Shown: one piece after another, positions 5,907 to 29,909 of the stretch
Position numbering within the stretch: the first letter of the stretch is position 1
How the letters are laid out: every line of letters begins with the position of its first letter
IMG/VR virus record: IMGVR_UViG_3300034198_017445
Coordinates: 1-64,000 of that record
DNA: 64,000 nucleotides
Origin: a virus
Strand: one strand, 5' to 3'
Notes under the pieces: generated by a model
What the model was told of the DNA's origin: nothing
Databases searched by the model: none
The model's input: only the letters and a program-made list of their open reading frames with translations
Position numbers and translations under genes: made by a program

Positions 5907-7070
5907 ATGGTAGTAGACGCAAAGACTCGCCGTCACCAAAATTTGCGGCGATTGTACGAGGCTTCGGTTCGGGATCGCAATACGAATCGGTTCCTCGAAG
6001 ACTTCACTTCGACGCTGAATGATGATCGGCACGATCTTGGCAGTCGCTGGTCGATTCGTCAGTTGGCTGAGCAGTTCATCCCTGATGGGCGCGAAGCAGT
6101 AAATATGCTTCGTCCTACTGGTTCGGGTGGCTTTCAGTTGAAGGAATCGGCGGAAGTCATCGACACTTCGCTGTTCGCAAACATCATCGGACCGGTGATG
6201 TATACGTCCACGTTGAACGGCTTCAATATGCCGGGTCTGGTTGGCGATCAGTTGGTCGAAACCATTCAGACTGCATTCTCCGGGGAGCGTATCCCTGGCG
6301 TCGGTCGAATCGGTGACGACGTTGATATCGTCAACGAAGGGTCGCCGTATCCGAACGCGGTTCTTGGTGAGGAGTACGTTGATACTCCTGAAACCATCAA
6401 ACGCGGCTTGATCCTGAACGTGACTCGCGAAGCGATCTATTTCGACCGCACGGGCGTGCTCTTGGCTGAGTGTGCTCGCGTTGGTGAACGGGTCGCCGTT
6501 AACCGCGAGAAGCGAATTCTGGACGTTGTAACGGGCATCAGCACGGTTTACCGTCGCAATGGCGCGGCTGCTCAAGCTACCTACGCTGCTGACAACACGG
6601 TTTCCAACACGTTGGCAGACTGGACGAGCCTGGATGCCGTTGCTCAGAAGTTCAACGTCATGACGGATCCTATCACTGGCGAACCGATTTCGATCGATGT
6701 CGTCGCGATGTTGGTTCCAAAGGCGTTGGCTGTTCTTGCGAACCGCATCATCAATTCGTCGATGACTCGCCAAGGATCTAGCACTGGCAACAACCAGACC
6801 TACGTTCAGGGGAATTCGCTGTACTCCACGGGTGCTCCGCAGGTCATCACGGGTCAGTATGTTCGTCAACGAACGGGCAGCGACGCGACTTGGTTTGCTG
6901 GCGATCCAAAGAAGTCGTTCGTCTACATGCAAAATTGGCCCCTGACAGTTTCGCAGTCCGACGATTCGAGCGAGGTCGGGTTCACTCGTGACATCGTCCT
7001 GCGGTTCAAGACTTCGGAACGTGGCGCTGCTGGCGTTCGCGAACGGCTGTACATGGTAAAAAACACCTAG
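5907..7070 (+). CDS. Major capsid protein (HK97 fold, Mu gpT-like)
   Basis: VNEGSPY...ETIKRGLILNVTREAIYFD motif resembles Mu-like gpT; synteny; followed by a terminator. Start placed at ATG 5907 after GAAAGG. Confidence 0.8.
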   Translation: MVVDAKTRRHQNLRRLYEASVRDRNTNRFLEDFTSTLNDDRHDLGSRWSIRQLAEQFIPDGREAVNMLRPTGSGGFQLKESAEVIDTSLFANIIGPVMYTSTLNGFNMPGLVGDQLVETIQTAFSGERIPGVGRIGDDVDIVNEGSPYPNAVLGEEYVDTPETIKRGLILNVTREAIYFDRTGVLLAECARVGERVAVNREKRILDVVTGISTVYRRNGAAAQATYAADNTVSNTLADWTSLDAVAQKFNVMTDPITGEPISIDVVAMLVPKALAVLANRIINSSMTRQGSSTGNNQTYVQGNSLYSTGAPQVITGQYVRQRTGSDATWFAGDPKKSFVYMQNWPLTVSQSDDSSEVGFTRDIVLRFKTSERGAAGVRERLYMVKNT

Positions 7071-10731: not shown

Positions 10732-11321
10732 TGCCGGACATTCTCAAGAAAACACCAACGTACACTCAAGTCGAAGCTCCTGTTTCGTTGACTGCTAACA
10801 CCCTCGGATCGCTTCGGACTTTGGATTTGCGCACCAAGCAAGGAGCACTGATTGGTATTCGGTTCGGCAGGTCCGTCGCTACAGTGTTGAATAGACCTGC
10901 CTATGTTTCAATCCGGCGCACTGACGGGAATACACTTTGCATTCCGTCAACAATATTTGACTTCGTGTCGCAAGTAAACGCATGTACTGCAACGACGCTT
11001 TCGAGCAGCGCATCGGCTGGAGATACTCAAGTTGTCGTTGTCAGTGGAACAGGGCTTGCGATCGGTGATGTGATTTGCTTCGCCGTAGCTGGAAGATTTG
11101 AAATAGCGAGGATCTTCAACATTGTCACTTCCACGACACTTGTGCTTGAAAGACCATTGCTCGCGGCGCATACAAGTGGCGATGCGGTTACGAACTGGGC
11201 TGAAGCGGCATGGATATTTTTGCCCGGATGGGAGCACTACGAAATTCGTTGCTGCAACGCAAGCAACCAAACAGTTCTTTTTGCGATCGATGCGGTGATT
11301 GATGAGGGCGAATCCTACTGA
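10731..11321 (+). CDS. Hypothetical virion protein
   Basis: TAATG coupling; TTLSSSASAGDTQVVV...LAIGDVI motif typical of phage structural proteins. Confidence 0.55.
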   Translation: MPDILKKTPTYTQVEAPVSLTANTLGSLRTLDLRTKQGALIGIRFGRSVATVLNRPAYVSIRRTDGNTLCIPSTIFDFVSQVNACTATTLSSSASAGDTQVVVVSGTGLAIGDVICFAVAGRFEIARIFNIVTSTTLVLERPLLAAHTSGDAVTNWAEAAWIFLPGWEHYEIRCCNASNQTVLFAIDAVIDEGESY

Positions 11322-12142
11322 TGAGCCGTCAAGGGGTTGTGCAATTCGAGAATCCTGTAAGTAGGCATCCACTGAATGTTGGGCTTCGGGCGTGGTATTA
11401 CATGCCTGACTCTAGGTTTGCAACTCAGGGTAGAATTTTCAACTTGGTAAATCGACGATTCAATCCTGGAACGGTATCTGGGACCTTCGGCTTCGGCGCG
11501 ACGCCGCGAAACTCCATTGCGTTCCGACAGCTCTCGCCTGTGTCGTTCGTCACCGTGCCGGACGGCCTGATCCCAGGGGCTGCCGCTGGAACCAGTGGCA
11601 CCGTATGCGGGTGGGTTAGAGCGACCGGCCTATGGTCGAGATTCCGCAACGTGTGGCTGTGGAACTCAAGAAATGTCGACGTGAGCATGAACGGAGGGCA
11701 GATTGGAGGAGCCGGGGCGCAGCCGTCCGCGTTCATTTTCTCCGCTACGAGGGTGACTGGCACACTGACCACGGACGCACGCTGGGTATGGCTTGCGGCG
11801 ACTCTTCGCTACAACGGCACGTTGAATGTGTACGTCAACGGCGTATCGATTGGATCCAGTGCCGTCGGAACCCATCAAACGCAAGTCGGATTCACTGCGA
11901 GGATTTGGGCGTACAGCGATCCAGTTGCGAATCAAGCTGACTGGCTTGGACCGTACGAATTCGACTACACGCGAGTCTATGACCGGGATTTGAGTGCGGA
12001 AGAAATTAGGTTTTTGTATATGGAGTCGCTTGACGGAAACCAGAATACATTAAATCTGGAGCGTCAGCGCCGATATGGGTTCGCTTCTACTCCAAGCGGA
12101 TCGCTTTTGCAATCTAGCTATTTCATGGCATTTCCAGGATAA
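11321..12142 (+). CDS. LamG/concanavalin-like lectin domain virion protein
   Basis: TVCGWVR...WVWLAAT...NVYVNGV...RVYDRDLSAEEI is a LamG-like pattern. Confidence 0.75.
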   Translation: MSRQGVVQFENPVSRHPLNVGLRAWYYMPDSRFATQGRIFNLVNRRFNPGTVSGTFGFGATPRNSIAFRQLSPVSFVTVPDGLIPGAAAGTSGTVCGWVRATGLWSRFRNVWLWNSRNVDVSMNGGQIGGAGAQPSAFIFSATRVTGTLTTDARWVWLAATLRYNGTLNVYVNGVSIGSSAVGTHQTQVGFTARIWAYSDPVANQADWLGPYEFDYTRVYDRDLSAEEIRFLYMESLDGNQNTLNLERQRRYGFASTPSGSLLQSSYFMAFPG

Positions 12143-13476: not shown

Positions 13477-13919
13477 TCCCTCGTGAGTTCATGGCTTCCG
13501 ATGCTTTGGATGTGATGACTTCGTTCGCGGATGACTTTGAGAGCGTGTCCGTTCGGGATGCGTTCGAAGCAATCAAACCAGACGTTCGCGAGGCGTTTGC
13601 TTCTAACTTTGCAAACACTCGTGCACCGTATGGAACGTGGCCCCCCCATTCACCGTACACGGTTGCAAGGTATGGACCGCACCCACTGTTGATTCTGTCC
13701 GGCGCGATGCTCGCAAGCGTGACCACAAGCGGTGCTTCGGAGTCGATCGAGGAGACTGGCGATCGGTATATGGTGCTCGGGACTGGGTTTTTCTATGCTC
13801 CCTACCAGCAGTTTGGAACCAGGAAGATCCCACCCAGGCCGTTTTTGTGGCTGACTGGTGATGCTGCTGATCAGATTTCCGAGAAATTCCTTGATGCATG
13901 CTGGACTATTTTGGTCTGA
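13473..13919 (+). CDS. Virion morphogenesis protein (Mu gpG / tail completion S-like)
   Basis: WPPHSPYT, LILSGAMLAS, YAPYQQFGTRKIPPRPFL. Confidence 0.85.
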   Translation: MIPREFMASDALDVMTSFADDFESVSVRDAFEAIKPDVREAFASNFANTRAPYGTWPPHSPYTVARYGPHPLLILSGAMLASVTTSGASESIEETGDRYMVLGTGFFYAPYQQFGTRKIPPRPFLWLTGDAADQISEKFLDACWTILV

Positions 13920-13935
13920 GAACGGCTATGTAATT

Positions 13936-14871
13936 ATGGAAAAGTCGAAGCGGCAAATAGGGAGCGTGGTTGGGTTGGCGATCGGTGATGCGATTGGCGC
14001 TCCGTGGGAGTTCACGCGTGGTCCGAATGTGGTAAATGGATACGAGTCCGGTGGTCCCTGGGATCTTGAGAAAGGGCAGTGGACGGACGACACGTCGATG
14101 GCGCTGTGCTTGGCTGATTCGATTATCGAGTCGGGGTGGTCGCTTCGTGATCAGCTTGATCGGTATGTTCGCTGGCACCGCGATGGGTATATGTCTAGCA
14201 CTGGTTCGTGCTTTGATATTGGCGTGACGACATGCCGGTCGCTGAGTGCTTACCAGAAGACTGGATTCACGATTGCCCCCCATGACGATCGAAGTCGTGG
14301 CAACGGTTCGATAATGCGTCTTGCTCCTGCAGCGGTTTATGCTTCTCGTATTTTTGACGTTTGCGGCATGCGCGGCGCTTTGGCTTTTGCGAATCTTTGC
14401 GGGACGTCGTCGCTGACAACTCACTCGCATCGGGAGTGCGTCGACTGCTGTGCATTTCTCGGGCTCGTGCTTGGGTTTCTTTACGAGTCGATGAGCCTGG
14501 AGGAGTGCTTCAAGCAGGACGCTTGGCATGCGATTCAAATGCTTGAGAGTTTCCCGGAGATCGGGTACGAGGTTTTTGAGTCGTCAAAGAAGCCTGTTCC
14601 GTTCGGCGTCAGGGGGCGTGCGATCGATACGTTGATTGCTGCTATTCATTGCGTTGCTACGACGAGCACGTTTTGCGAGGCTGTCTGCAAGGCTGCGGCG
14701 CTTGGTGGGGACACGGATTCGGTTGGTGCTGTCGCTGGTCAGATCGCTGGGGCACTGTACGGTATCGACGGCATTGACCATGATTTGATCGGGGGGCTGT
14801 TCTGGTCTGACAAAATCACGGCAATGGCAACGGAACTATCGGAGTGGGTAGAAAAGCCAAGAAAAAAATAA
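13936..14871 (+). CDS. ADP-ribosylglycohydrolase (DraG/ARH family)
   Basis: GLAIGDAIGAPWEF, WTDDTSMALCLADS, GNGSIMRLAP, GGDTDSVGAVAGQIAGALYG. Confidence 0.92.
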   Translation: MEKSKRQIGSVVGLAIGDAIGAPWEFTRGPNVVNGYESGGPWDLEKGQWTDDTSMALCLADSIIESGWSLRDQLDRYVRWHRDGYMSSTGSCFDIGVTTCRSLSAYQKTGFTIAPHDDRSRGNGSIMRLAPAAVYASRIFDVCGMRGALAFANLCGTSSLTTHSHRECVDCCAFLGLVLGFLYESMSLEECFKQDAWHAIQMLESFPEIGYEVFESSKKPVPFGVRGRAIDTLIAAIHCVATTSTFCEAVCKAAALGGDTDSVGAVAGQIAGALYGIDGIDHDLIGGLFWSDKITAMATELSEWVEKPRKK

Positions 14872-15960: not shown

Positions 15961-16902
15961 ATGAGTCAAAGTGCAGCAGCTAGGTTGATGCTAGCCGACG
16001 ATGCGGCTATCACGACGAATCCGATCGCGGTCGCGTTTTCGGATTGTTCGTTGGCAGGTCCACAAACGATCGCGACGCACATGGGGCACCGTGGAACGCG
16101 GCAGCGTGCTTCGTGCCGTTCTCGTGTCGTCTCATCCAAGTCGCAAGGAAACATCACAGGAAATTTTTCGGTCACTGAGATCGACTGGTTTTTGAACCGC
16201 GCTCTCGGTGGTGCTACGCTCGGTGCGAACGGAACGCTTGCGGCTTCTGGAAATTCGACTATTTATCCAGGCGAGTCCCTGCTTCCGATCTATGCGCTGG
16301 TCGACAAGGTCGCTGCAATCTACCTGTACAACAAACTTCGCATTGCCAGCTTTGAGGTTGGTGGTCAGGAAACTCAGTATCTGAACTGGTCGATTGCTAC
16401 GGCTGGTGAACTTGAGACGGTCTATGGTTCGGCGTGGCCATCGACACCTGCTTACGAGTGCGGGACTTCGTTCCTGTTCTCGGATTGCACTCTGACTTAC
16501 AGCGGGACTGCATACAAAATGCAATCGTTCCGGTTGTCTGTCAGCAATGCTCTTGATGCTCAGCAGTACGAAAACTCGATCACTCCGTCGAGGTTTGAAA
16601 CTCCTGACTTGCAGGTCGGACTGTCTGTCCAGTGTGCGTTGCGATCGGATACGATCGCGCTGTACAACGCTGCGCTCGCTGGTGCGGCTGCGAAACTTTC
16701 AATCAGCAACGGATCGACTTCTGGTTGCGTTACCTATGATTTTAATTTTGGAAACCTGAAGTATCGTCAGGGGGCTCCGACCATTCCTCCCCAGGGACGG
16801 ATCAACATGCCATTGCAGTTTGAGGCGTTCCGTTCGGCTGCTGTTTCCAGCTTTGTGATCGGTGACAATCAAATTCACGTCGCGAAGACTGTTACGCCAT
16901 AG
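15961..16902 (+). CDS. Major tail (tube) protein
   Basis: GGAGG RBS; beta-rich; precedes the chaperone pair and tape measure. Confidence 0.7.
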   Translation: MSQSAAARLMLADDAAITTNPIAVAFSDCSLAGPQTIATHMGHRGTRQRASCRSRVVSSKSQGNITGNFSVTEIDWFLNRALGGATLGANGTLAASGNSTIYPGESLLPIYALVDKVAAIYLYNKLRIASFEVGGQETQYLNWSIATAGELETVYGSAWPSTPAYECGTSFLFSDCTLTYSGTAYKMQSFRLSVSNALDAQQYENSITPSRFETPDLQVGLSVQCALRSDTIALYNAALAGAAAKLSISNGSTSGCVTYDFNFGNLKYRQGAPTIPPQGRINMPLQFEAFRSAAVSSFVIGDNQIHVAKTVTP

Positions 16903-17366: not shown

Positions 17367-17782
17367 TGACATGGTTCGCGGTGTCGCTTTCAAACCCGGC
17401 GCTGGCATCGCGGCCATGTGATCTATGTCGGCAGATCATGTTCGACGAGGAAACTGGTATGCCGTATGAATCAAAGCCTGGATCCAAAACCAAGTATGAC
17501 GCTCGCGTCGGGAAGGTTCCCTGCGAGACGTCTATTGGTTGCAAGAAGGGGCATTGGAAAGACAAGCCTGATCTAAATCCTTCGCAGGAAGCTGTAATCG
17601 ACTTGTTCTATTCTTCGCGCGCCACGGGGGGAGCGTTTTTGTCTCGTGCCGAACGGCGCGATTGGTGGCTGCTTACTATTTTTGCGCGTCTTCAGGCCAT
17701 CTCCGAGGCAAACGAGAGATCCGCATCGTCGTCGCTTTTGAGTTGCATCACTGCGATGCAGACGGGGGCAGTCAATGGCTGA
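17366..17782 (+). CDS. Tail assembly chaperone extension (gpT-like, -1 frameshift product)
   Basis: In the -1 frame of the upstream ORF and open through A AAA AAA at 17357-17363. Confidence 0.6.
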   Translation: MTWFAVSLSNPALASRPCDLCRQIMFDEETGMPYESKPGSKTKYDARVGKVPCETSIGCKKGHWKDKPDLNPSQEAVIDLFYSSRATGGAFLSRAERRDWWLLTIFARLQAISEANERSASSSLLSCITAMQTGAVNG

Positions 17783-20126
17783 GAATGCTGAACGCGGCGT
17801 AACATTCTTGCTTCGTGCAAAGGCGGATCCTAGCTCGCGCACCGTCATCGAAAGTTTTGGGCATGATCTAAGTTCGGCGCAGTCGCAAATCGACAAGGCT
17901 GTCTCTACGACTGCTCGCAATGTCGAGACGGCTGTCGATGCCCAAAACGCAAGGACCAAGGCTGCGGTGGATGCTTCGATCTCTGAACGGCAGCGTGCTG
18001 TCGATAGGTCGATCAAGGATCAGCAGGAGGCTGAGGAAAAGGCGCTTAATGATCGCGCTTCGGCGATTCGTCAAAGCGAGTCTAAGATATCGGCTATCGA
18101 GATGGACCTTGAAAGCAAGTCTCTTGAGGAACTGGAGGCTATGCGAGAACAGCGGATTGCGCAGCGTCTTGCAAAGGAGGAGCAGAAGTACCTGGAAGCG
18201 ATGCAGGCTCGCATTGCTGCGGACAAGGCTTACGAGCAGATTTCTGACGCTGCTCAAAAACAAACGGTCGAGACGGGTCGTGCGTTGTCGAAGGAAGAAA
18301 TCGACATCATCAAGCAGATCCAGAAAGCTCGCGATACCTTGACTCGCGAGGCAGAGGCTTCTGAAAAGCGATGGACTTCGGTGCAAGAAGCGGAGTCAGA
18401 ACGGCGCTTAAATTCTGCCATCGTCGAAGCCAAAAAGAAGAAGTCTGTCCAGGACGAGCAGGACGAGGCTGTCAAGGCGTCGCATGAAAAGGTCGAGAAG
18501 CACCTGGAGGACATGAAAAACGCACTCAGCGGCGCTCTGCTTGCTTCTGGTCAGTTGGCGCGTGGTCTTGCTTTCCTCGGGCTCTCTGGCGAGAAGGAAG
18601 TCAATAGGCTCACCGAGGGGATCATTAAGTTGGTTGGTGCCCTGGATGCGTTTGAGGGTTTTGTTGGCACCGTCATCAAGATCGAAAAAGCGTACCGATC
18701 GTGGACGGCTGCAACGGTCGAGCAGGTCGCTGCAGAGCAATTGCTTGCTGCTGCTCGTGCTGGTGGTTCGGCGGTTGGCGCTGGCGTCTCGGGGGCTACC
18801 GGGGCTGTTCAGGCTGGTGCGGCAAAACGGGCTGGAAGCGCAGCGGCTGGTGGGCTCGTTGGCGAGGGTGTTGGTGGGGTTGCTGGTGGTCTTGCTGGGA
18901 CTGCGGTTGCTGGCGTCGGAGGAAAAATTGCTGGCACTGGACCGGTTGCTGGTGCGTTAGCTCGGTTGGCTGCGTTTGGGGATAGAGCGAAGGCTTTTGC
19001 TGCTCCTGTTGCTAGGGTCGCAGGAGGTTTGGCTGCGCGAGTCGCACCACCACTGGCTGCGCTTGCTGGTGGTTATGCGTTAGGAAGCGGAATCAGGAAC
19101 GCATGGGAGGAGTCGTCGATCGAGGACGATGTTTGGGGTGGTGCAACGAAGCTAGCCAAGAACGTGATTGATATGCCCACGTTCGGCTGGGGTTCGTACA
19201 TCATGGGCGAGAAGACTTTCGAGACGTCTCGCGATCGCAGACTGAAAAGCGAGGACAAGGATTTCAATCAGCGAACGGAAATCCTGAACGAAAAAAACAA
19301 AAGGGACGCGGCTGACGAGGAGTCGCTTGTCGCGCAGACAAAACAGAAACTCGAAATCCTGGAAGCTCAAGCCCAGGTTGAGAAGCATCTTCATGACCTA
19401 AAATTCAAGGACATGACGATCGACGAAAAGCGGCTGGATCTGACTTCAAGAATCGCCGATGCTACCAAGGAGGCTGCTACCGGAGACGAAAAGTCTCATG
19501 CTCGTGTCATCGATCTTTTGAACAAAAAACTGGAGACTGAGCATGCGATTTACTCCGTTCAAAAGACCGCAGCAGTTGAGCAAGAAAACACCGCTAGAAA
19601 ATTGCTCGATCTCGCGAACGCTAAACTTGAATCAGAAAAGTCTGCTCACGAGTCTGCCAAGGAACGCTTTGGTGGGATGTCAGCTAGTGAGCAACAGGAA
19701 ACGATTGACCTGTTTGCAAAGTTTCAGCAGGATCCTAAGTCGATGGATCCTGAGGCCATGCGAAAGATGGGCGGTCTTTCGAAGTCTATGGATGCCCAGA
19801 TCAAGGCTGAGAAGTTACGTCGCGCTGATGCGGCTGGCTTCGATCGAACGCTGGGTGCCAATGACGTAGCCGAAATCGCAAAGCTGGAGCACGAAATCAA
19901 AACCAAGTTGGAGGTCGACGTGCAGGCAAAGGCTGACGTGAGTGTCAAGCTGACGGCTGACTACGAAGCGATCGCTAAAACTGTAAACGAGCAGATCAAA
20001 GCCCAATGGAAAGACGTACTCGACTTGATGGCAAAACGTGTCATGGAAAACGAGTCGTCTATTCAAGATATCCTTAAAAGATTGAAGGATAGAAACATTC
20101 GCCTGACCAATGGAGGTATTCCATAA
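17775..20126 (+). CDS. Tape measure protein
   Basis: 783 aa; long coiled-coil and A/G-rich hydrophobic segments; follows the chaperone pair. Confidence 0.8.
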   Translation: MAENAERGVTFLLRAKADPSSRTVIESFGHDLSSAQSQIDKAVSTTARNVETAVDAQNARTKAAVDASISERQRAVDRSIKDQQEAEEKALNDRASAIRQSESKISAIEMDLESKSLEELEAMREQRIAQRLAKEEQKYLEAMQARIAADKAYEQISDAAQKQTVETGRALSKEEIDIIKQIQKARDTLTREAEASEKRWTSVQEAESERRLNSAIVEAKKKKSVQDEQDEAVKASHEKVEKHLEDMKNALSGALLASGQLARGLAFLGLSGEKEVNRLTEGIIKLVGALDAFEGFVGTVIKIEKAYRSWTAATVEQVAAEQLLAAARAGGSAVGAGVSGATGAVQAGAAKRAGSAAAGGLVGEGVGGVAGGLAGTAVAGVGGKIAGTGPVAGALARLAAFGDRAKAFAAPVARVAGGLAARVAPPLAALAGGYALGSGIRNAWEESSIEDDVWGGATKLAKNVIDMPTFGWGSYIMGEKTFETSRDRRLKSEDKDFNQRTEILNEKNKRDAADEESLVAQTKQKLEILEAQAQVEKHLHDLKFKDMTIDEKRLDLTSRIADATKEAATGDEKSHARVIDLLNKKLETEHAIYSVQKTAAVEQENTARKLLDLANAKLESEKSAHESAKERFGGMSASEQQETIDLFAKFQQDPKSMDPEAMRKMGGLSKSMDAQIKAEKLRRADAAGFDRTLGANDVAEIAKLEHEIKTKLEVDVQAKADVSVKLTADYEAIAKTVNEQIKAQWKDVLDLMAKRVMENESSIQDILKRLKDRNIRLTNGGIP

Positions 20127-22112: not shown

Positions 22113-23904
22113 TCCACAGGGAAGGCTGCGGTACGCTGGTGTTTGGTGCGATGGCGCGTTTTCTGTTCCGCGTACCCCATCGTGCAATCCAGACACGATC
22201 GTCGCCGACTTCAATCTGTCAAAGAATTTGCCTCAGGTTGGAGACATTGAAGTCTGGTACGGAAGTTCGTTCATCACGCTTCCGCGTTGTCGCTTGATCC
22301 GTCAGGAGGTTCAGACTTCGGATAGCGGTCGGATGTGGCGTTGCATTTTTCAGGATCGAAGGTGGGTATGGAACTACGCTTCGTCGATGGGAAACTTTTG
22401 CTATGCCAGCGGATTAAGTGATAACAACGGGTTCAAGCTAATATTTAATCAAGTTGAGATGATTGAGCTTTTGATTCGCTTGTTTGCTCAGCTTGGTGAT
22501 GTGCCAAATTTCAACATTGGCACTCGCATCAATGGTGCGTTCACAAACCCAACGGTTCACATGAACCTTGCGCCTGCAAGCGTTGCGCTGGCTACGCTGC
22601 TTGACAGCATCAGTGCTGTCGCTTGCCTGAATTGGAACAACTCAATCAGTGTTTTCACGACGAATACTGGCGATCCTCCACCGAACGACTCGCGTGTTTG
22701 CGAGTATGCGATATCGTCCGTTCCTCCTACCATTCCGGAGTTCTTGGCGATGTTTTCGGAGCCAACGGAATTCCTGACTGACATCCCGCTTTCGGCGGTT
22801 GGCTTTGATGTGACCAGCGCAGGGGCTCCTGACTACAACAATCCTAAGCCAATCGATCAACTGTCGTATTCACCTACCAGTGCTGGCAAGCCATGGGATC
22901 CACCGCACTTTAACAACGTTGATCCAACGTACCGTCAATTGGCTGTCGAGACCATCTTTCGGTTTTATCAAGTGCGGTATCGCAGGTCGAAGCTGCAGGT
23001 CGCCGTTCCGAACGTGCAGGCTGGATTGAAGCCTGGAAAGAAAGTATGGGAGTGGTTCAATCCAGACGACTTCGTTATTGGTGACTCCGACGACGAGTAC
23101 TCTCGGCTGTTGTATCCTGATGTCAAAGGCAAAGAGCCGATCCCAGAGATCTGGGGATTCTATTGCACGGGTGGGTACTCAAAAAACAACAATCTGACCC
23201 CACCGCCAGCAGCGATTGCTACCGACCAGATGAATCCCGCCTACACGTCACCCTATACGGCTGCGGGGGTGAACGCTCAGTATCCGTTGCTGGCTTACAC
23301 GGGAAAGTATCGGTTTGATCGAGCAGCCAATATGGTGATTTTCCAGAAGCCTGTTTACTACAACAACTCGAACCCTGTCACGCTTGGTGGTTTTGGTCCT
23401 ATCATTCCTGCGTTCTTAGTCATGCGCGCGTGGCATCATTTGAGGCGAAAGTATGACCGAGAAACAATGCGTCAGTTTTCGTTTATCCCTACGGGATCTC
23501 CGTTCGCAATTCCTGGGCTTGTGCAGCCAAGCCCGATGAATTCTCCGTTCTTTGTCTCTCCAAGAGTTTTGGAGTGCACCAAGTGGCCTAACTGGACGGC
23601 GTTGGTTGAGCAGCGTGCTCGTGATGTGTTCCAGCAATTTGCGATTAACAAATCGGCAACGGTTCAGTACAAAGGCTTTGCTTTCGACATCAACGTCAAC
23701 GGGTGCATCAAGGGTGTCCGGTTTGATTGTGGTCCTGCGGGGCATTGCACAACTACGGTTGCGTGGAACGAGGCGCAGGGTATTTTCTTCGACGACCATC
23801 GCTTGAAAGAAATCGAAGCATCGATGAAATTCACGGCGACTCAGATGCTGAGAGTTTTGAAGAAAAGCGGGTTGTATGATCTTTCAAATTCGGTGCAGCC
23901 ATGA
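22105..23904 (+). CDS. Putative baseplate hub / tail tip protein
   Basis: 599 aa; QDRRWVW motif; synteny. Confidence 0.5.
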   Translation: MPDPQGRLRYAGVWCDGAFSVPRTPSCNPDTIVADFNLSKNLPQVGDIEVWYGSSFITLPRCRLIRQEVQTSDSGRMWRCIFQDRRWVWNYASSMGNFCYASGLSDNNGFKLIFNQVEMIELLIRLFAQLGDVPNFNIGTRINGAFTNPTVHMNLAPASVALATLLDSISAVACLNWNNSISVFTTNTGDPPPNDSRVCEYAISSVPPTIPEFLAMFSEPTEFLTDIPLSAVGFDVTSAGAPDYNNPKPIDQLSYSPTSAGKPWDPPHFNNVDPTYRQLAVETIFRFYQVRYRRSKLQVAVPNVQAGLKPGKKVWEWFNPDDFVIGDSDDEYSRLLYPDVKGKEPIPEIWGFYCTGGYSKNNNLTPPPAAIATDQMNPAYTSPYTAAGVNAQYPLLAYTGKYRFDRAANMVIFQKPVYYNNSNPVTLGGFGPIIPAFLVMRAWHHLRRKYDRETMRQFSFIPTGSPFAIPGLVQPSPMNSPFFVSPRVLECTKWPNWTALVEQRARDVFQQFAINKSATVQYKGFAFDINVNGCIKGVRFDCGPAGHCTTTVAWNEAQGIFFDDHRLKEIEASMKFTATQMLRVLKKSGLYDLSNSVQP

Positions 23905-24449
23905 CGCTAGTTGAGCAGGTTCGTGAGTACGGTTTTGAAAACACGACGGGCGAGGAGATTCCTCCGTTTGCGTGCTTGGCTGTAACCAGTTCAACGACCG
24001 AGAACGGCTTCGTTCGATACGTCATTCGGAAGCCAAACTACGAGGACGAGCAAGCGCAGAATCCAGGAAGGCTTGTGTTCAACTCTGGGGCTGTTTGTCC
24101 GGTTGACGCGTGGGGTTCGTGTTCGTCTGACTTTCCGGCGATCGCTCTTGTGAACGAAGCGACCGAAGTGACCGAGGGTCAAATCATGGGACCGGTTGAG
24201 AACCAATGGTATCTTGGTCCCTACGGCAACGCTTTTGTGCTAAAGGCGAAAGAGATCAGTCGTGATGCGGTTGCAACCGATATCTATCCATGGCTGGTTG
24301 AGCCGTATGTCGCCGAGGTTGAGATTGTTCGCGTGACATCGGCTACTCCTACGGCTGGTTACTATTCTGGTGTCGTGGAGCGATTCGACAAGGCGACGCT
24401 CACTTGGATTGCTGTTCGAGACTGCAAGGTGAGGGATACGAACGCATGA
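23901..24449 (+). CDS. Tail tip hypothetical protein
   Basis: ATGA coupling in the tail operon. Confidence 0.5.
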   Translation: MTLVEQVREYGFENTTGEEIPPFACLAVTSSTTENGFVRYVIRKPNYEDEQAQNPGRLVFNSGAVCPVDAWGSCSSDFPAIALVNEATEVTEGQIMGPVENQWYLGPYGNAFVLKAKEISRDAVATDIYPWLVEPYVAEVEIVRVTSATPTAGYYSGVVERFDKATLTWIAVRDCKVRDTNA

Positions 24450-26011
24450 CGATCCAAACACGGAGGTACGTCAGTGAGTTCATCGGTGTCGATGGCGCTC
24501 CGATCTACTCGGCTGAATGTCGCAATACGGTCACGATGGAAGACAATCGCTTCGTTGCTAAGTTCCTTGGTGTCGATGGTGGTGAGCCAATCTTTGGTGT
24601 TGCGCGGTGCGACTTCCCTTCCCTCGGGCGATATCCGATGCGGTTTGTTGGCGTTGACGGCGCTCCGGTTTACTCGATTGGTTGTTGCGTTCCGAGCTGC
24701 TACGAAATTTCGCCATTGGAGCGACCGGTCATAAGCAAGTCAGGATGGACGGCAAGTCCCTGGGGAACGAACCCATGTTGTCCGTGCATGGAGCTAGTGC
24801 CAGATACTCCGTTCGATCCGACTTACTGTTGCACTGACTACTTTTTAGACAAAACTTTGACCGGCGTTTCTGTCATGTCAGAGCGAGCGTATCGAACACA
24901 AAAGCCGAAGCATTTCCCTACCACTGGTGGCGTTACTCTATCGGAAGAACACTGCTGCGACGGCGCTCCGTTTGAGGTCGCTTCGACAACGCGAACGACC
25001 ACTCAACGAATCAGGTACAAGCTGCTTACTGAGTTCCAGCTTATTAAGATTGTGATTTGCATCTCAAAGAATTTAGTGACGTGCGGAAGCGATGCGCCTG
25101 CCATGAAATGGATCGTCAGTTCGCGATTTGTTTTTTCGTATCGGTCGTGGGCTACGATCGCTTTGAATGCTGACGTTGTTCACGTCAGGACTGTAACTCC
25201 TGGGACGTGTTTCACTCTCGGCGCTGCGGATGTTGACTGCTCTGCATCCACTACTGCTCCGTGCCATCCTGATGATTTCGATGACAACGTAAATTCTCCG
25301 ACTATCGGATTTGGGAACCAGCCAAATTTTATTTATCTGGGTGGTGGTTCGGATTCGTTTGAGCGGGTCAAGTTTTACGAAACGCTTCCAACGGAGACCA
25401 CTGTCAATTTCACCAATGCTGACGTTGGCGATGATTGCGAGTGGGATCGTTGCGGTCAGGCTGGGATTCTTGGAGATAGTTTTTGCGTCGACGTGACTTC
25501 AGTTCCTTCCGGAATACCAACGTGCTATTGCGAAAAGTCGTACACGTCGCCGACGACTACCTACACCGGGAATATCGTTTCGTCGTGTTGTGGGATTTGC
25601 TCAATAATCGTCGGATTGAATTACCCGTACACCGAAGTTACTAGGTGCGATGACCCAGAGTTTTTCTACTTGGATTGTATCGCAGGTTGTCAGTTCGATC
25701 CGTGCCCGACTTCAACGTATTCGTACTCTACTGTGACGGCTGATTCGCCGACTGCATGGGATCCATGCTTCCCAAACTGGAGAGACGAGTTTCCTGATTG
25801 CGTTGGGAATTCGTGGGGGTACATGCGAGCAAAGACATGCGCTGAGGATGCATCTTGCTTCTGGCCAGATTCGTGCGGTAGTTCGTGTGGATATCCCAAG
25901 TACGCTGGATTGGTTGCTATCTATCCGAGCCTTGTAACTACGGCTGAGTGTGATTTTTCTTCGCGCAGTTGTTGCCTGTCAGCACCTAGCTGGAACGTTT
26001 ACTTTGAGTGA
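24446..26011 (+). CDS. Cysteine-rich tail-tip / receptor-binding protein candidate
   Basis: About 38 Cys in 521 aa; three N-terminal R(Y/F)xxxF(I/L/V)GVDGxP repeats; last large gene of the tail module. Confidence 0.55.
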   Translation: MTIQTRRYVSEFIGVDGAPIYSAECRNTVTMEDNRFVAKFLGVDGGEPIFGVARCDFPSLGRYPMRFVGVDGAPVYSIGCCVPSCYEISPLERPVISKSGWTASPWGTNPCCPCMELVPDTPFDPTYCCTDYFLDKTLTGVSVMSERAYRTQKPKHFPTTGGVTLSEEHCCDGAPFEVASTTRTTTQRIRYKLLTEFQLIKIVICISKNLVTCGSDAPAMKWIVSSRFVFSYRSWATIALNADVVHVRTVTPGTCFTLGAADVDCSASTTAPCHPDDFDDNVNSPTIGFGNQPNFIYLGGGSDSFERVKFYETLPTETTVNFTNADVGDDCEWDRCGQAGILGDSFCVDVTSVPSGIPTCYCEKSYTSPTTTYTGNIVSSCCGICSIIVGLNYPYTEVTRCDDPEFFYLDCIAGCQFDPCPTSTYSYSTVTADSPTAWDPCFPNWRDEFPDCVGNSWGYMRAKTCAEDASCFWPDSCGSSCGYPKYAGLVAIYPSLVTTAECDFSSRSCCLSAPSWNVYFE

Positions 26012-26014
26012 TGC

Positions 26015-26437
26015 ATGAGAGTCGAACTGGGTTCTGGGGTCATTCCAAAAAAAGGCATCACGGTTATCAATCCGCCTGCATCTAGCGACGCGGTTGCTGC
26101 TCCCTTGGTTGGTCAAGCTCCTGGACGCATCGACCAAGCGGAGATGATCCGTCGCGCTGGGCGTCTTGCGTGGCAGTTTCTCCACGAGTACGTTGGCTGC
26201 GATCCTCAATGGTTCAAACTTTGGACGATTCTTATCCCTCGGGGCTGCGAGTGCGAGGAAGCGTTTGCAAAGATCGTAGTTGACTTTCCTCCTGACTTCT
26301 CATCCGACGATGCGTTCTGGGTCTGGGGTGTTATGGTTCATAACTTGGTCAATGAAAAGCTGATCAAGAAGGGCGACACTACGAAGCGGATCATTCCTAT
26401 CGACGAGGCTCGCTTTATTTGGAACCGTGCGGCTTAG
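26015..26437 (+). CDS. Erv1/Alr-like sulfhydryl oxidase
   Basis: GRLAWQFLH...IPRGCEC...F...PPDFSS...FWVWGVMVHNLVNEKL matches the Erv/Alr W-x-x-LH and HN-x-VN-x-KL signatures. Confidence 0.75.
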   Translation: MRVELGSGVIPKKGITVINPPASSDAVAAPLVGQAPGRIDQAEMIRRAGRLAWQFLHEYVGCDPQWFKLWTILIPRGCECEEAFAKIVVDFPPDFSSDDAFWVWGVMVHNLVNEKLIKKGDTTKRIIPIDEARFIWNRAA

Positions 26438-26442
26438 GTCTA

Positions 26443-26465
26443 TGTGCGCATCTCTGCGATAGGTT
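26443..26465 (+). promoter_or_regulatory. Putative late promoter TGTGCGCA-N9-TAGGTT
   Basis: Copy of the four-site motif, upstream of the membrane/lysis genes. Confidence 0.55.
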
Positions 26466-26482
26466 TTCACCATGGAGGTGAC

Positions 26483-26848
26483 ATGGATTTTCTACTTCTG
26501 TCCGATGAATTCGCTGTAAGATTGCAAGCTGGGGCTTTTGGTTCCTTGCTGGCTGTCGTTTCCGAGACTCGCGATCACTCAGTTCCTGCGACACGCAGGT
26601 GGCTTGGTGGGTGGATATTCGCTATCTTTGGGGCTCCAATCGGTTCTGCTCTGATGTTGTCTTTGCTTGGACCTATCGGCATGGTTGGGAATGCTACCAA
26701 GCGTGACGCGGAGTTGATCACGGCGTTCTTTTGCGGCATCGTCGGATGGAAAATCGTTCACGCGATTAACTTAAGAGCAAATTCATTTCGCTTTGGTCGT
26801 GACAAAAAAACAAAAGGCAACGACGAGAATCATGATCAGCGAAGCTAA
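26483..26848 (+). CDS. Holin-like membrane protein
   Basis: GGAGG RBS; 2-3 TM segments; basic C-terminus. Confidence 0.55.
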   Translation: MDFLLLSDEFAVRLQAGAFGSLLAVVSETRDHSVPATRRWLGGWIFAIFGAPIGSALMLSLLGPIGMVGNATKRDAELITAFFCGIVGWKIVHAINLRANSFRFGRDKKTKGNDENHDQRS

Positions 26849-27164: not shown

Positions 27165-27762
27165 CAATGCTGCTGACCTTGATCAAAATCCGTCCGAGGT
27201 TGATCCTGCTCCCGTCAAGCCAAAGCCACGGAAAAAAAGAAAGCCCCACAGAAAACCAAAGGCACCGACCGTTTCAGACCCTCAGTCGTGGTTTTCTCTT
27301 AAGTCGTGGTCGTCGTCGATCGACTGGTATTTGGTTGGCTTGCTGTTTCTTGGTGCCATCACTCTTGCGCCCTACATAGTGAAGTTTACGCAGTTTGTTG
27401 TCCCTGCTGTAATTGTTCCTGTAGCTAATTTTGACGCTTCGGCTGCAAAGGTTCCGGAGTGGCTCGGGCTCGTTGGAACCGAAAAAAACACGGGTGCTCC
27501 TGCATTCGCTGAGTCGCTTAGAACGATTGCGGCTGGATGCAAGTCTGGGGCGATCACAAGTTCGGACGTGCTTTGGGACAAGCTGCACGAGGAGTTCGCT
27601 GCAAAGACCGATGAGGTTGCGTGGGCTGACTGGTCGCTGTTTGCTCGGGAGATTTTCAGCGAGGCGAAGGCGTTGAAGCAGGCAGGTAAAATCACTACGA
27701 TCAACCGCGATGTTGCGGCATATTTCGAGGCAATTGCGAAAGCACTAGACGAGGTAAAGTGA
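27154..27762 (+). CDS. Membrane-anchored protein (lysis module)
   Basis: GTG start after GAGG; basic stretch, one TM segment, helical C-terminal domain. Confidence 0.5.
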   Translation: MTTDNAADLDQNPSEVDPAPVKPKPRKKRKPHRKPKAPTVSDPQSWFSLKSWSSSIDWYLVGLLFLGAITLAPYIVKFTQFVVPAVIVPVANFDASAAKVPEWLGLVGTEKNTGAPAFAESLRTIAAGCKSGAITSSDVLWDKLHEEFAAKTDEVAWADWSLFAREIFSEAKALKQAGKITTINRDVAAYFEAIAKALDEVK

Positions 27763-29909
27763 TGCCAGTTAAGACTCAGATTTGGGATCGGTATCTTCAT
27801 GGCGATCTTGATCAGGCTGCTTTCCACGATCGCGATCACCAAAAGAAGTTTGCGGCTGAAAGCCCTACTCCGATGTACGCGATGGCTGCGCCAAACGTCA
27901 TGGCAAGGGAGCCAGCCAAGGACGTATTTCTTGGTCGCTATATGGTCATGGGAATGCGTACTCTCTACGGTCAAAACTACAAGTATCTCCCTCAGTACCA
28001 AGAATCAGGGACGTGTTTCTTGGCAGGCACTCTTGTGCTGATGGCTGACGGGACTGAAAAGCCAATTGATCAGGTGGTTCCTGGTGATTTTGTTCGTTCT
28101 CACGATGGGTCCATCCAGCAGGTGATTGATGTCGGTTCGCGTCAATTCACAGGGAATCTGCACAGTTTGAGAATGTCCGGTGCTTCGAGACCGCTTGTAA
28201 CAACTGCTGAGCATCCGGTTTTGGGGTATTTGCGACACAGAACATCGAACGCTTCGCATCGCGCACGGGACTGGCATCCGGCTTCATCTCTTGGGGCTGG
28301 GGATCGTGTTTTCGTTCCGTCTGGTTTTGATGGTGGTCGATCTATTTTTGATGCGTCGGTTCTTGCGATGGAAAAGGTCGTTAGGGTCTACAAGGAAGAA
28401 ACCGTCACTGAGGATCGAGTACGTCCAAAGCAATCGAGCAAGTCTTGCAAGCGGTTCATCCCATTGAACGCTGATGTTGGTTTTTTGGTTGGGTTGTATG
28501 CTGCGGAAGGAAGTGTGGAAAAAGGCGCACGAACTACTTTTACAATGCATCGTGACGAAGTTGAAGTCTTAAATCGATGCAGTGTTTTTCTTAAAGATTT
28601 GTTCGGCACTTCCGGTACGGTTGGCGTATCCAAAAACCTATCCAGGCTTCGTGTTTCCTCGGTTGCACTGGCTCGTCTTCTGTCGATGTTTGTTCCTGGT
28701 AAGGCGATAACCAAGTCGTTTTCTGTTGACGTTTTTACTGCTTGTCGCGAGTTTCGCGAGGGTGTTTTGCGAGGATGGTTTGAGGGTGATGGTCATCTTT
28801 CGAAAAGGCGGCGAATTGGAGTAGGCGTGACCAGTTCGTTGCAATTGGCAATGGATATTGAAAGATTGTCGCTTTCCATTGGTGCGCGATGCAGTGTTTT
28901 TCCAAGAGAGCAGCAAGATCACCAGAACGCGGCTGCGAACGATATTGCCTACTCTGGTTCTTCGCTTGGTCTTGTGTCTGGCGTAGCCACTGAGAAGTCA
29001 ACGCGGCCAAAGAATCACGTTGAGGTTGAAGGGGGATTTGCTGTCAACATCGCTTCAAATACTGCTATCTGGGTTGAAAATGTTCAGGTTTGGAACCTTG
29101 AAGTAGAAAACACCCATAGCTATATCGTTGCGGATGTGGCTGTTCATAACTGCGTCGGGCAGTCTCACTCAAGCGGTGCGACTTGCGTTATGGCTGTTTC
29201 TTCGCTGCTCTCGGGGCTCAAGTTTCCCGGTCGCGCGGCGGTTGCTCCGATCTACGGTGGTTCTCGCGTTGAGGTCGGGAAGCAAGTAGGCAGGTGGGAC
29301 GGTTCGACCGGATCCTGGGCTGCGGATTGGCTTTCGGTCAAGGGTGGCGTTGTCACGCTGCTTGAGATGGGGCTGGACGACAATCCCAAAACCGAGAAAG
29401 AGTGGCTTGCCACAATGCAACGGGACGAGCGTTCTGCGGTCGCCTGGGCTGCTTCTCGCGACGGTGTTCCTGCAAACTATGAGCAAATGTCCAAACTCAA
29501 ACCTATCAGGTCTGCTCCGTTGGTTTCCACGGTTGAGGAGGTTCGGGCTTCGATCGGAAACCTAACACCAGTCAATATTTGCGGACAGGTCCATCCGTCG
29601 CAAAGCCTGACCGACAAAGGGGTGTCAAAATCCATCAGTCGTGGTGGTGGTCACTCTACGCTCTTGATCGGTCAGTATTTCGACGGTACAAACTGGTGGT
29701 ATGATCATCTCCAATCGTGGTGGTGGTATTACCAGGGAGGGTTCTGTCGACCGATTAATGCGATCGACAAGCAGTTCGCTCGTTGCGTGACTCGGATCCC
29801 TGAGTCGTGGCTAAAGAGTTGGCTCGTTGAACGAGACTGTTATGCTCTCGTTGGAGTTCAGGGTCTTGAGCCGGTGGAAAAGTCGTTTATGAAAATCATG
29901 CACTCTTAG
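27759..29909 (+). CDS. Papain-like (C1-type) cysteine peptidase, intein-containing; candidate lysin
   Basis: Splicing gives QESGT|CVG (oxyanion Gln and catalytic Cys); GGGHSTLLIG (His); HLQSWW (NSW-like). Confidence 0.75.
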   Translation: MMPVKTQIWDRYLHGDLDQAAFHDRDHQKKFAAESPTPMYAMAAPNVMAREPAKDVFLGRYMVMGMRTLYGQNYKYLPQYQESGTCFLAGTLVLMADGTEKPIDQVVPGDFVRSHDGSIQQVIDVGSRQFTGNLHSLRMSGASRPLVTTAEHPVLGYLRHRTSNASHRARDWHPASSLGAGDRVFVPSGFDGGRSIFDASVLAMEKVVRVYKEETVTEDRVRPKQSSKSCKRFIPLNADVGFLVGLYAAEGSVEKGARTTFTMHRDEVEVLNRCSVFLKDLFGTSGTVGVSKNLSRLRVSSVALARLLSMFVPGKAITKSFSVDVFTACREFREGVLRGWFEGDGHLSKRRRIGVGVTSSLQLAMDIERLSLSIGARCSVFPREQQDHQNAAANDIAYSGSSLGLVSGVATEKSTRPKNHVEVEGGFAVNIASNTAIWVENVQVWNLEVENTHSYIVADVAVHNCVGQSHSSGATCVMAVSSLLSGLKFPGRAAVAPIYGGSRVEVGKQVGRWDGSTGSWAADWLSVKGGVVTLLEMGLDDNPKTEKEWLATMQRDERSAVAWAASRDGVPANYEQMSKLKPIRSAPLVSTVEEVRASIGNLTPVNICGQVHPSQSLTDKGVSKSISRGGGHSTLLIGQYFDGTNWWYDHLQSWWWYYQGGFCRPINAIDKQFARCVTRIPESWLKSWLVERDCYALVGVQGLEPVEKSFMKIMHS
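28014..29150 (+). mobile_element. Intein with LAGLIDADG homing endonuclease (379 aa)
   Basis: Block A CFLAGTLVLMADG; block B TTAEHPV; LVGLYAAEGS and VLRGWFEGDG motifs; ends VWNLEVENTHSYIVADVAVHN followed by Cys. Confidence 0.93.

What the first reader, a model, noticed from the sequence alone, without database searches (positions are those of the whole stretch)
24446..26437. Erv1/Alr-like sulfhydryl oxidase paired with a cysteine-rich tail protein
Seen: a 521-aa tail-tip protein with about 38 Cys (many CC pairs) is followed 3 nt later by a 140-aa protein with Erv/Alr signatures (WQFLH; HNLVNEKL). It has CxC (GCEC) in place of the canonical CxxC. Known: Erv/Alr FAD oxidases are typical of eukaryotes and of large DNA viruses such as poxvirus E10R, which form virion disulfides in the cytoplasm. 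Inference: the phage carries its own cytoplasmic disulfide pathway to fold a disulfide-rich receptor-binding protein.
Basis: partly seen in the sequence, partly recalled or inferred. Interest (0 to 1): 0.78.

Follow-up and report, generated by a model that had tools for sequence, protein, structure and literature searches.

The report
Phage disulfide oxidase beside cysteine-packed tail protein
An uncultured 74-kb tailed phage encodes a small flavin-type disulfide-forming enzyme (Erv family, otherwise known from eukaryotes and giant viruses) directly after a tail-module protein with 38 cysteines, and every related phage examined keeps this pair, so these phages probably make their own disulfide bonds inside the bacterial cell.

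Summary

The odd CxC (GCEC) is a family trait, not a lesion. Of 148 representative relatives, 126 have CxC, 18 have the canonical CxxC and 4 have neither. W-x3-H and H-N-x-V-N are invariant or nearly so.

In 78 of 79 IMG/VR loci a 416-880 aa protein with 5.9-9.6% Cys sits directly upstream (background 1.3%). All 34 loci found through the partner, with room downstream, have the Erv gene. In the partner family, 25 of the 33 best-conserved columns are Cys and no His is conserved.

There is no signal peptide, no phage thioredoxin or glutaredoxin, and no match in GenBank phages. The only three genome hits are Planctomycetota or Pirellula MAGs.

Best reading (about 0.65): a dedicated cytoplasmic sulfhydryl oxidase for one tail protein. 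Flavin binding, activity and the disulfides themselves are untested.

This scan has already reported the same pairing in at least 8 other genomes. I found no paper describing it.

The parts
24446..26011 (+). Cysteine-rich tail-module protein, 521 aa, 38 Cys; the proposed substrate.
   Evidence: Homologues P0003 (54% identity) and P0004 (38%) keep 30 Cys invariant. In 33 divergent homologues, 25 of the 33 columns conserved at 80% or more are Cys, and no His is conserved. The AF2 model has pLDDT 70.7 and is beta-rich. No fold match was found.
24461..24712 (+). N-terminal extension with three ~27-aa repeats (R[YF]VxxFxGVDGxPxxxxxxC), residues 6-89. P0004 has it; P0003 and most relatives lack it.
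   Evidence: Read directly from the translation and the alignment. Most of it (residues 1-81) is modelled poorly, mostly below pLDDT 50.
26015..26437 (+). Erv/ALR-fold protein, 140 aa. Residues 1-40 form a disordered tail; residues 41-140 form a five-helix Erv domain.
26171..26185 (+). WQFLH (W53-H57), the helix-1 flavin-site signature.
   Evidence: W53 and H57 are invariant in 117 aligned relatives. They align to GRHSWAVLH of ALR.
26243..26254 (+). GCEC (C78, C80), a CxC pair at the start of helix 3, where canonical Ervs carry the FAD-proximal CxxC.
   Evidence: C78 is invariant and C80 is at least 90% conserved. All of about 76 IMG/VR homologues have IPxxxCxC. The profile alignment places CxC on the CEEC of ALR with a one-residue gap. 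Helix 3 starts at residue 80.
26339..26362 (+). HNLVNEKL (H109-L116), the helix-4 flavin-site signature.
   Evidence: H109 and N110 are invariant; V112, N113 and L116 are at least 90% conserved. They align to HNEVNRKL of ALR.
23901..24449 (+). 182-aa protein overlapping the start of the Cys-rich gene; it is the third conserved member of the block.
   Evidence: It is a distant homologue (22-31% identity, E down to 4e-21) of the ~226-aa gene that precedes the Cys-rich gene in the related loci.
17775..20126 (+). Tape-measure-like protein (783 aa, 0 Cys); it marks the start of the distal tail module.
   Evidence: phrog_1533, E 0.0016. The tail tube gene lies at 15961-16902 (PF18906).
26444..26848 (+). 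Holin-like membrane protein directly after the Erv gene; it marks the end of the tail module.
   Evidence: phrog_13918 E 7e-6 and phrog_2359 (holin) E 0.004. The maximum hydrophobicity over a 19-residue window is 1.96.

Best explanation
The 140-aa protein is a compact, single-disulfide member of the Erv/ALR flavin sulfhydryl-oxidase fold. Its flavin-proximal redox pair is Cys-x-Cys instead of Cys-x-x-Cys. It is translated together with the preceding 521-aa cysteine-packed tail-module protein. It oxidises that protein's cysteines to disulfides in the host cytoplasm during virion assembly and passes the electrons through bound FAD to oxygen or another acceptor.

Shown here: the fold (predicted), family membership by profile, conservation of the flavin-site residues and of the cysteine pair, the conserved gene pairing, and the absence of export signals.

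Inferred: FAD binding, oxidase activity, that the partner is the substrate, that its cysteines form disulfides, and that it is a receptor-binding or tail-tip protein. The host is probably a Pirellula-like planctomycete, by extension from relatives.
For: Family and fold:
- Pfam is above threshold.
- The family profile hits ALR, AtErv1, Erv1, pB119L and Erv2 at E 2.5e-16 to 1.5e-12 over the whole domain.

Active site:
- W53, H57, C78, H109 and N110 are invariant, and C80, V112, N113 and L116 are at least 90% conserved, in 117 relatives at 27-46% identity.
- Of 148 representatives, 126 carry CxC and 18 carry the canonical PCGxC at the same place. Only 4 lack a pair. Selection therefore keeps two cysteines there.

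Pairing:
- 78 of 79 loci have a protein with 5.9-9.6% Cys directly upstream.
- In the reciprocal search, 34 of 34 loci with room have the Erv gene downstream.
- The pair also occurs in Pirellula MAG contigs, including Erv-glycosyltransferase fusions.

Partner:
- It diverges faster (median 29% identity against 51% for the Erv domain), yet keeps its cysteines. 25 of 33 conserved columns are Cys and no His is conserved.
- C347 and C510 are present together in 29 sequences and absent together in 4.
- It has no signal peptide or transmembrane segment.

Precedent: compact viral Ervs with only the FAD-proximal disulfide are known (PMC3509050).
Against: - No biochemical data exist for any member.
- A flavin-proximal CxC is not described for Erv enzymes in the papers read. 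PMC3509050 lists C-x-C only as a shuttle motif, and a strained CxC ring next to the flavin might behave differently.
- The 78 loci are not independent. 67 of 71 share the same gene upstream of the partner, so the adjacency could partly be inherited synteny of one broad lineage.
- Cysteine totals are odd in many homologues.
- An N-terminal CCCxCC cluster in most relatives could bind metal.
- No thioredoxin-fold partner is encoded to relay or proof-read disulfides.
Confidence: 0.65

Rival explanations
1. The partner's conserved cysteines hold metal ions (Cys4 zinc sites or iron-sulfur clusters) rather than disulfides. The Erv-like protein then has another role, such as handling sulfur or metal, or acting on another target.
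For: Cysteine totals are odd in many homologues, and most carry an N-terminal CCCxCC cluster. No structure or coordinates were available to show disulfide geometry. 174 residues of the partner model fall below pLDDT 50.
Against: No His is conserved. The conserved Cys are widely spaced, and the paired CxxC...CxxC knuckles typical of zinc sites are lacking. The obligate neighbour belongs to a family whose only known chemistry is disulfide formation. Variable Cys tend to appear in sets of two or four.
Confidence: 0.12
2. The Erv-like protein is a non-catalytic assembly chaperone or minor structural component of the tail that has merely kept the Erv fold.
For: The canonical CxxC is altered. It sits where tail-fibre assembly chaperones usually sit, directly after the fibre gene. 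It has a disordered 40-residue N-terminal tail.
Against: A pseudo-enzyme would not be expected to keep W53, H57, H109 and N110 invariant, and a cysteine pair in 144 of 148 representatives, across this much divergence. CxC and CxxC forms interchange within the family.
Confidence: 0.1
3. The enzyme is active but its target is not the neighbouring protein. It could oxidise host cytoplasmic or envelope proteins, or generate peroxide, for example to time lysis, since a holin-like gene follows here.
For: The Erv gene lies between the tail module and a holin-like gene in this window. The tested viral Erv (R596) failed to oxidise model protein substrates (PMC3509050).
Against: The downstream neighbour varies: a metallophosphoesterase in 53 loci, other genes elsewhere. 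The upstream Cys-rich gene is constant. Fusions to glycosyltransferase and sulfotransferase domains point to protein maturation.
Confidence: 0.08

Closest known systems
ASFV pB119L (PDB 3GWL) and other compact Erv oxidases of large DNA viruses (vaccinia E10R)
   Different: The host is a bacterium and the virus a tailed phage. The redox pair is CxC, not CxxC. No thioredoxin- or glutaredoxin-fold relay protein is encoded. The enzyme is paired with a single dedicated partner gene. Sequence identity is only about 22%.
Cellular Erv/ALR enzymes (yeast Erv2 1JR8, Erv1, mammalian ALR 1OQC/3O55, Arabidopsis Erv1 2HJ3)
   Same: The profile match covers the whole domain (E 2.5e-16 to 1.5e-12). GRxxWxxLH, HNxVNxKLGKP and the helix-5 W are shared. 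The five-helix fold is the same.
   Different: The loop between helices 1 and 2 is 12 residues shorter. There is a one-residue deletion inside the CxxC and three extra residues before it. There is no shuttle disulfide and no structural C-terminal disulfide.
CxC redox motifs: Erv2 C-terminal CGC shuttle and Mia40 CPC
   Same: A Cys-x-Cys pair acts as a redox-active disulfide in oxidative folding (PMC3509050 for C-X-C shuttles; PMC4019985 for the Mia40 CPC).
   Different: Those motifs sit on flexible tails or in a non-flavin protein. Here the CxC occupies the flavin-proximal site itself.

Membership tests
Erv1/ALR sulfhydryl oxidases (Pfam PF04777) | Profile match above the curated threshold | tested here: met
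   32.5 bits against a cut-off of 27.6, covering profile positions 41-82 of 93. A profile of 117 relatives matches ALR over the whole domain at E 2.5e-16.
Erv1/ALR sulfhydryl oxidases (Pfam PF04777) | Helical-bundle FAD-binding fold (helices 1-5) | tested here: met
Erv1/ALR sulfhydryl oxidases (Pfam PF04777) | Flavin-site signature residues (W-x3-H in helix 1; H-N-x-V-N-x-K-L in helix 4; W in helix 5) | tested here: met
   W53, H57, H109 and N110 are invariant; V112, N113 and L116 are at least 90% conserved. W136 is invariant among the 12 closest relatives. They align to the same residues of ALR. That these residues contact FAD is taken from my own knowledge of the Erv2 and ALR structures, not tested here.
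Erv1/ALR sulfhydryl oxidases (Pfam PF04777) | Cys-x-x-Cys disulfide next to the flavin at the start of helix 3 | tested here: not met
   The window has GCEC (CxC). 126 of 148 relatives have CxC and 18 keep CxxC. The pair sits at the canonical place with a one-residue deletion.
Erv1/ALR sulfhydryl oxidases (Pfam PF04777) | Bound FAD and thiol:oxygen oxidoreductase activity | not testable with these tools
   This needs purified protein, a flavin spectrum and oxygen-consumption assays.
Erv1/ALR sulfhydryl oxidases (Pfam PF04777) | Second 'shuttle' cysteine pair on a flexible tail (cellular members) | tested here: not met
   There are only three Cys (62, 78, 80) and none in the disordered residues 1-40. 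C62 is present in 40 of 126 CxC relatives. Compact viral Ervs also lack a shuttle pair (PMC3509050).
Cytoplasmic disulfide pathway of large DNA viruses (vaccinia E10R-A2.5L-G4L type) | Virus-encoded thioredoxin- or glutaredoxin-fold relay protein between the oxidase and its substrates | tested here: not met
   PF00085 and PF00462 find nothing in the 74-kb genome, while the control genomes give hits. Divergent relay proteins cannot be excluded.
Cytoplasmic disulfide pathway of large DNA viruses (vaccinia E10R-A2.5L-G4L type) | Cysteine-rich virion proteins as substrates, made without export signals | tested here: inconclusive
   The partner is Cys-rich, lies in the tail module and lacks a signal peptide. 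Neither its presence in virions nor its disulfides have been shown.
Phage tail fibre / receptor-binding proteins (for the 521-aa partner) | Homology or fold match to a known tail-fibre, tail-spike or baseplate family | tested here: inconclusive

The most novel reading that the evidence does not exclude
Tailed phages of planctomycetes carry a self-contained oxidative-folding unit: one flavin Erv oxidase with a previously undescribed flavin-proximal Cys-x-Cys site, dedicated to one disulfide-knotted tail protein. This would be the first bacteriophage counterpart of the giant-virus cytoplasmic disulfide pathways. The large phage family (358 clusters at 50% identity) could also be a prokaryotic-virus reservoir of the Erv fold, which has been thought to be restricted to eukaryotes and their viruses.
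Probability: 0.55. Interest if true: 0.82.

Novelty: new variant of a known kind. Interest (0 to 1): 0.72.

Why it matters
Disulfide-rich virion proteins are a puzzle for viruses that assemble in a reducing bacterial cytoplasm. Poxviruses, ASFV, mimivirus and baculoviruses solve this with their own Erv oxidases. No such system is described for bacteriophages in the literature I could search.

A two-gene module of enzyme plus substrate would make the question directly testable by co-expression in E. coli. It would offer a compact tool for making disulfide-rich proteins in the cytoplasm. It would also provide a natural experiment on how a CxC pair works next to a flavin. Finally, it widens the known distribution of the Erv fold.

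Tried and rejected
- The word-indexed search found no relative of the Erv protein besides itself. Only the exhaustive HMMER search revealed the family.
P0003 and the Erv relative P0006/P0154 are recorded on contigs of the same two lengths, 27,103 and 21,356. That only suggests they lie on the same contigs.
- Pattern scans with the partner alignment found nothing in viral or metagenome contigs. The first genome scan also found nothing. Alignments A2 and A5 were too divergent for pattern scans.
- tblastn of both proteins against 50,697 GenBank phage records gave no match.
- A viral-contig hit to the N-terminus (L002) turned out to be a dUTPase sharing the word KKGITVIN. I judged it a chance resemblance to the disordered tail.
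- A weak [2Fe-2S] ferredoxin match (E 0.005) is not supported by the fold or the profile searches.
- The weak Vp24_capsid hit of the partner (19.4 bits against a cut-off of 27) was not pursued.
- The partner's fold has no match in PDB, BFVD or the ESM Atlas.
- The tree of 148 Erv domains is too short (95 columns) to resolve how often CxC and CxxC switched. At least 2-3 changes are forced and up to about 10 are possible.
- A sample of 300 further genomes of the phylum of the Pirellula MAG had no match, so this is not a common cellular gene there.
- Model coordinates are not exposed, so Cys-Cys distances could not be measured.
- Four literature searches found no paper on a phage Erv oxidase.

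Full report
**Setting.** The window is 64 kb of a 74,334-bp IMG/VR virus record that CheckV rates as complete. All long genes lie on the + strand. Pfam and PHROGs identify the following:
- a major capsid protein (5907-7070);
- a tail tube protein (15961-16902);
- a tape-measure-like protein (17775-20126, no Cys);
- five unannotated tail-module genes ending at 26011;
- the Erv-like gene (26015-26437);
- a holin-like gene (26444-26848);
- a 716-aa protein with a Hint/LAGLIDADG intein (27759-29909).

**Observation.**
- ORF 24446-26011 encodes 521 aa with 38 Cys (7.3%) and six CC pairs.
- Its stop is followed, 3 nt later, by the ATG of a 140-aa ORF containing WQFLH, GCEC and HNLVNEKL.
- No other structural protein of this phage is Cys-rich. 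The capsid protein has 0.3%, the tape measure 0% and the tube 1.9%.

**The 140-aa protein is an Erv-family domain.**
- Pfam PF04777 scores 32.5 bits against a cut-off of 27.6, although only over profile positions 41-82. phmmer finds yeast Erv2 at E 2e-5.
- An exhaustive HMMER search of 1.84 billion representatives found 358 clusters at E 0.001 or better and 69 at 1e-10 or better.
- A profile of 117 of these matches ALR, Arabidopsis Erv1, yeast Erv1, ASFV pB119L and Erv2 at E 2.5e-16 to 1.5e-12 over the entire domain.
- The AlphaFold model built on that alignment has pLDDT above 94 for residues 41-140, with five helices and a disordered N-terminal 40 residues.
- Foldseek's top 24 PDB hits are all Erv-family oxidases at probability 1.00.

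**The CxC is a family trait.**
- In 117 relatives at 27-46% identity, W53, H57, C78, H109 and N110 are invariant. C80, V112, N113 and L116 are at least 90% conserved.
- All of about 76 homologues in IMG/VR contigs read IPxxxCxC, and none has CxxC.
- Among 148 representative domains, 126 have CxC, 18 have the canonical PCGxC, and 4 have no pair.
- The profile alignment places CxC on the CEEC of ALR with a one-residue gap. Helix 3 of the model starts at C80. The pair therefore occupies the flavin-proximal site.
- The tree is poorly resolved, but well-supported branches force at least 2-3 switches between the two forms.
- Selection has kept two cysteines at this spot while allowing either spacing. 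This argues for a working redox pair and against a decayed enzyme.
- PMC3509050 names the FAD-proximal disulfide of Erv enzymes 'CXXC' and lists C-X-C only among shuttle motifs. PMC4019985 notes the CPC site of Mia40. A CxC disulfide is therefore chemically precedented, but not at this position in the papers I read.
- The protein has no shuttle pair. Its Cys are only at 62, 78 and 80, as in the compact viral Ervs described in PMC3509050.

**The pairing is conserved.**
- A pattern scan of IMG/VR with 12 relatives returned 149 confirmed loci, of which 80 were kept.
- In 78 of the 79 loci where an Erv ORF was recognised, the gene ending just before the Erv domain encodes 416-523 aa (two cases of 855-880 aa) with 25-55 Cys (5.9-9.6%). 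The exception is cut by the contig end.
- The other 645 ORFs of 150 aa or more in these loci average 1.3% Cys, with a 95th percentile of 2.6%.
- These partners are distant homologues of the window's protein (21-31% identity) and fall into 32 clusters at 80% identity.
- Searching the other way, with the partner, all 34 loci with room downstream carry a CxC Erv gene.

**A caveat on independence.** 67 of 71 loci also share the gene upstream of the partner. The window's 182-aa ORF 23901-24449 is a distant homologue of it. The loci therefore represent one broad lineage with a conserved three-gene block, not 78 independent associations. Against mere inertia:
- the downstream neighbour varies: a metallophosphoesterase in 53 loci, a holin-like gene here, other genes elsewhere;
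- the Erv domain is sometimes fused to GT4 glycosyltransferase, sulfotransferase or unknown domains while staying next to the Cys-rich gene.

**The partner.**
- Across 33 homologues at 15-24% identity to the window's protein, 25 of the 33 columns conserved at 80% or more are Cys, and no His is conserved.
- The conserved Cys are widely spaced, and the window's protein has only two CxxC.
- C347 and C510 are present together in 29 sequences and absent together in 4. Clade-specific Cys mostly come in sets of two or four, but this signal is confounded by relatedness.
- The partner diverges faster than the enzyme: median 29% identity against 51%. This fits a surface or receptor-binding protein.
- Its model (pLDDT 70.7) is beta-rich with very long hairpins. 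It matches nothing in PDB, BFVD or the ESM Atlas.
- Neither protein has an N-terminal hydrophobic segment or a transmembrane-grade stretch. Both should stay in the cytoplasm until lysis.
- The phage encodes no thioredoxin or glutaredoxin.

**Host and distribution.**
- Neither protein matches any of 50,697 GenBank phage records.
- The cluster members that carry a name are called 'hypothetical protein', and all come from metagenomes.
- In one genome per species for 185,579 species, the only three confirmed hits are Planctomycetota MAGs, two of them named Pirellula.
- One 10.2-Mb Pirellula MAG has seven copies. At least four are arranged as zero-Cys long protein, then Cys-rich protein, then Erv fusion, on contigs of 73-126 kb.
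- 300 other genomes sampled from that phylum have none.
- PMC10598087 also lists Pirellula among the few bacteria with PF04777.
- A planctomycete host for this phage is thus plausible but inferred.

**Mechanism and rivals.** The best-supported reading is a dedicated cytoplasmic sulfhydryl oxidase that introduces disulfides into the co-translated tail protein (confidence about 0.65). The rivals are:
- metal-binding cysteines in the partner (0.12);
- a non-catalytic chaperone (0.10);
- a different target, such as host proteins or lysis timing (0.08).

None is excluded, because flavin binding, activity and disulfides were not and could not be tested here.

**Prior work.**
- Four full-text searches found no description of a phage Erv oxidase.
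- This scan's own notes report the same pairing in at least eight other genomes, including a CxC Erv-glycosyltransferase fusion and planctomycete hosts.
- I re-derived the pairing, the CxC site, the fusions and the planctomycete link independently here.

Noticed in passing
window 27759-29909 (+): A 716-aa ORF just after the holin-like genes carries an intein: Hint domains at residues ~82-189 and a LAGLIDADG homing endonuclease at ~330-400. The host protein of the intein was not identified.
   Followed up: no
window 13861-14871 (+): An ADP-ribosylglycohydrolase (PF03747, E 3e-58) sits inside the head-tail structural module.
   Followed up: no
window 24461-24712 (+): The Cys-rich protein begins with three ~27-aa repeats (R[YF]VxxFxGVDGxP...C). 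P0004 has them; P0003 and most relatives lack them and start at an MGxxGxCCCxCC cluster instead.
   Followed up: partly
window 26015-26134 (+); L002 9821-10276: Residues 9-19 of the Erv-like protein (VIPKKGITVIN) resemble dUTPase motif III. The only viral-contig hit to this part is a real dUTPase. The region is disordered in the model and the resemblance is probably chance. The N-terminus MRVELGSG is shared with the nearest relatives P0006 and P0008, which supports the annotated start.
   Followed up: partly
L003-L082, gene after the Erv gene (e.g. L053 7916-8914, L015 8266-9366): In 53 related loci the Erv gene is followed by a calcineurin-like metallophosphoesterase (phrog_221, PF00149). The window has no such gene at that place.
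   Followed up: partly
P0009, P0027, P0055, P0056, P0070, P0085, P0111; L098 2622-3935 (-); L099 2-1357: The CxC Erv domain is repeatedly fused N-terminally to GT4 glycosyltransferase domains, and once to a sulfotransferase. In a Pirellula MAG one such fusion directly follows a 30-Cys protein. The partner may also be glycosylated.
   Followed up: partly
G001 (Pirellula sp. MAG, 10.2 Mb): C211, C1, C106, C72, C377, C89, C138: One MAG holds seven Erv-family copies, at least four in prophage-like tail modules, while 300 other sampled genomes of the phylum hold none. This could reflect poly-lysogeny or phage contigs binned into the MAG.
   Followed up: partly
window 11321-12142 (+): A 273-aa protein with a concanavalin-A-like lectin/glucanase domain (Laminin_G_3, E 1e-9) lies in the head-tail region. 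It is a possible carbohydrate-binding decoration or fibre protein.
   Followed up: no
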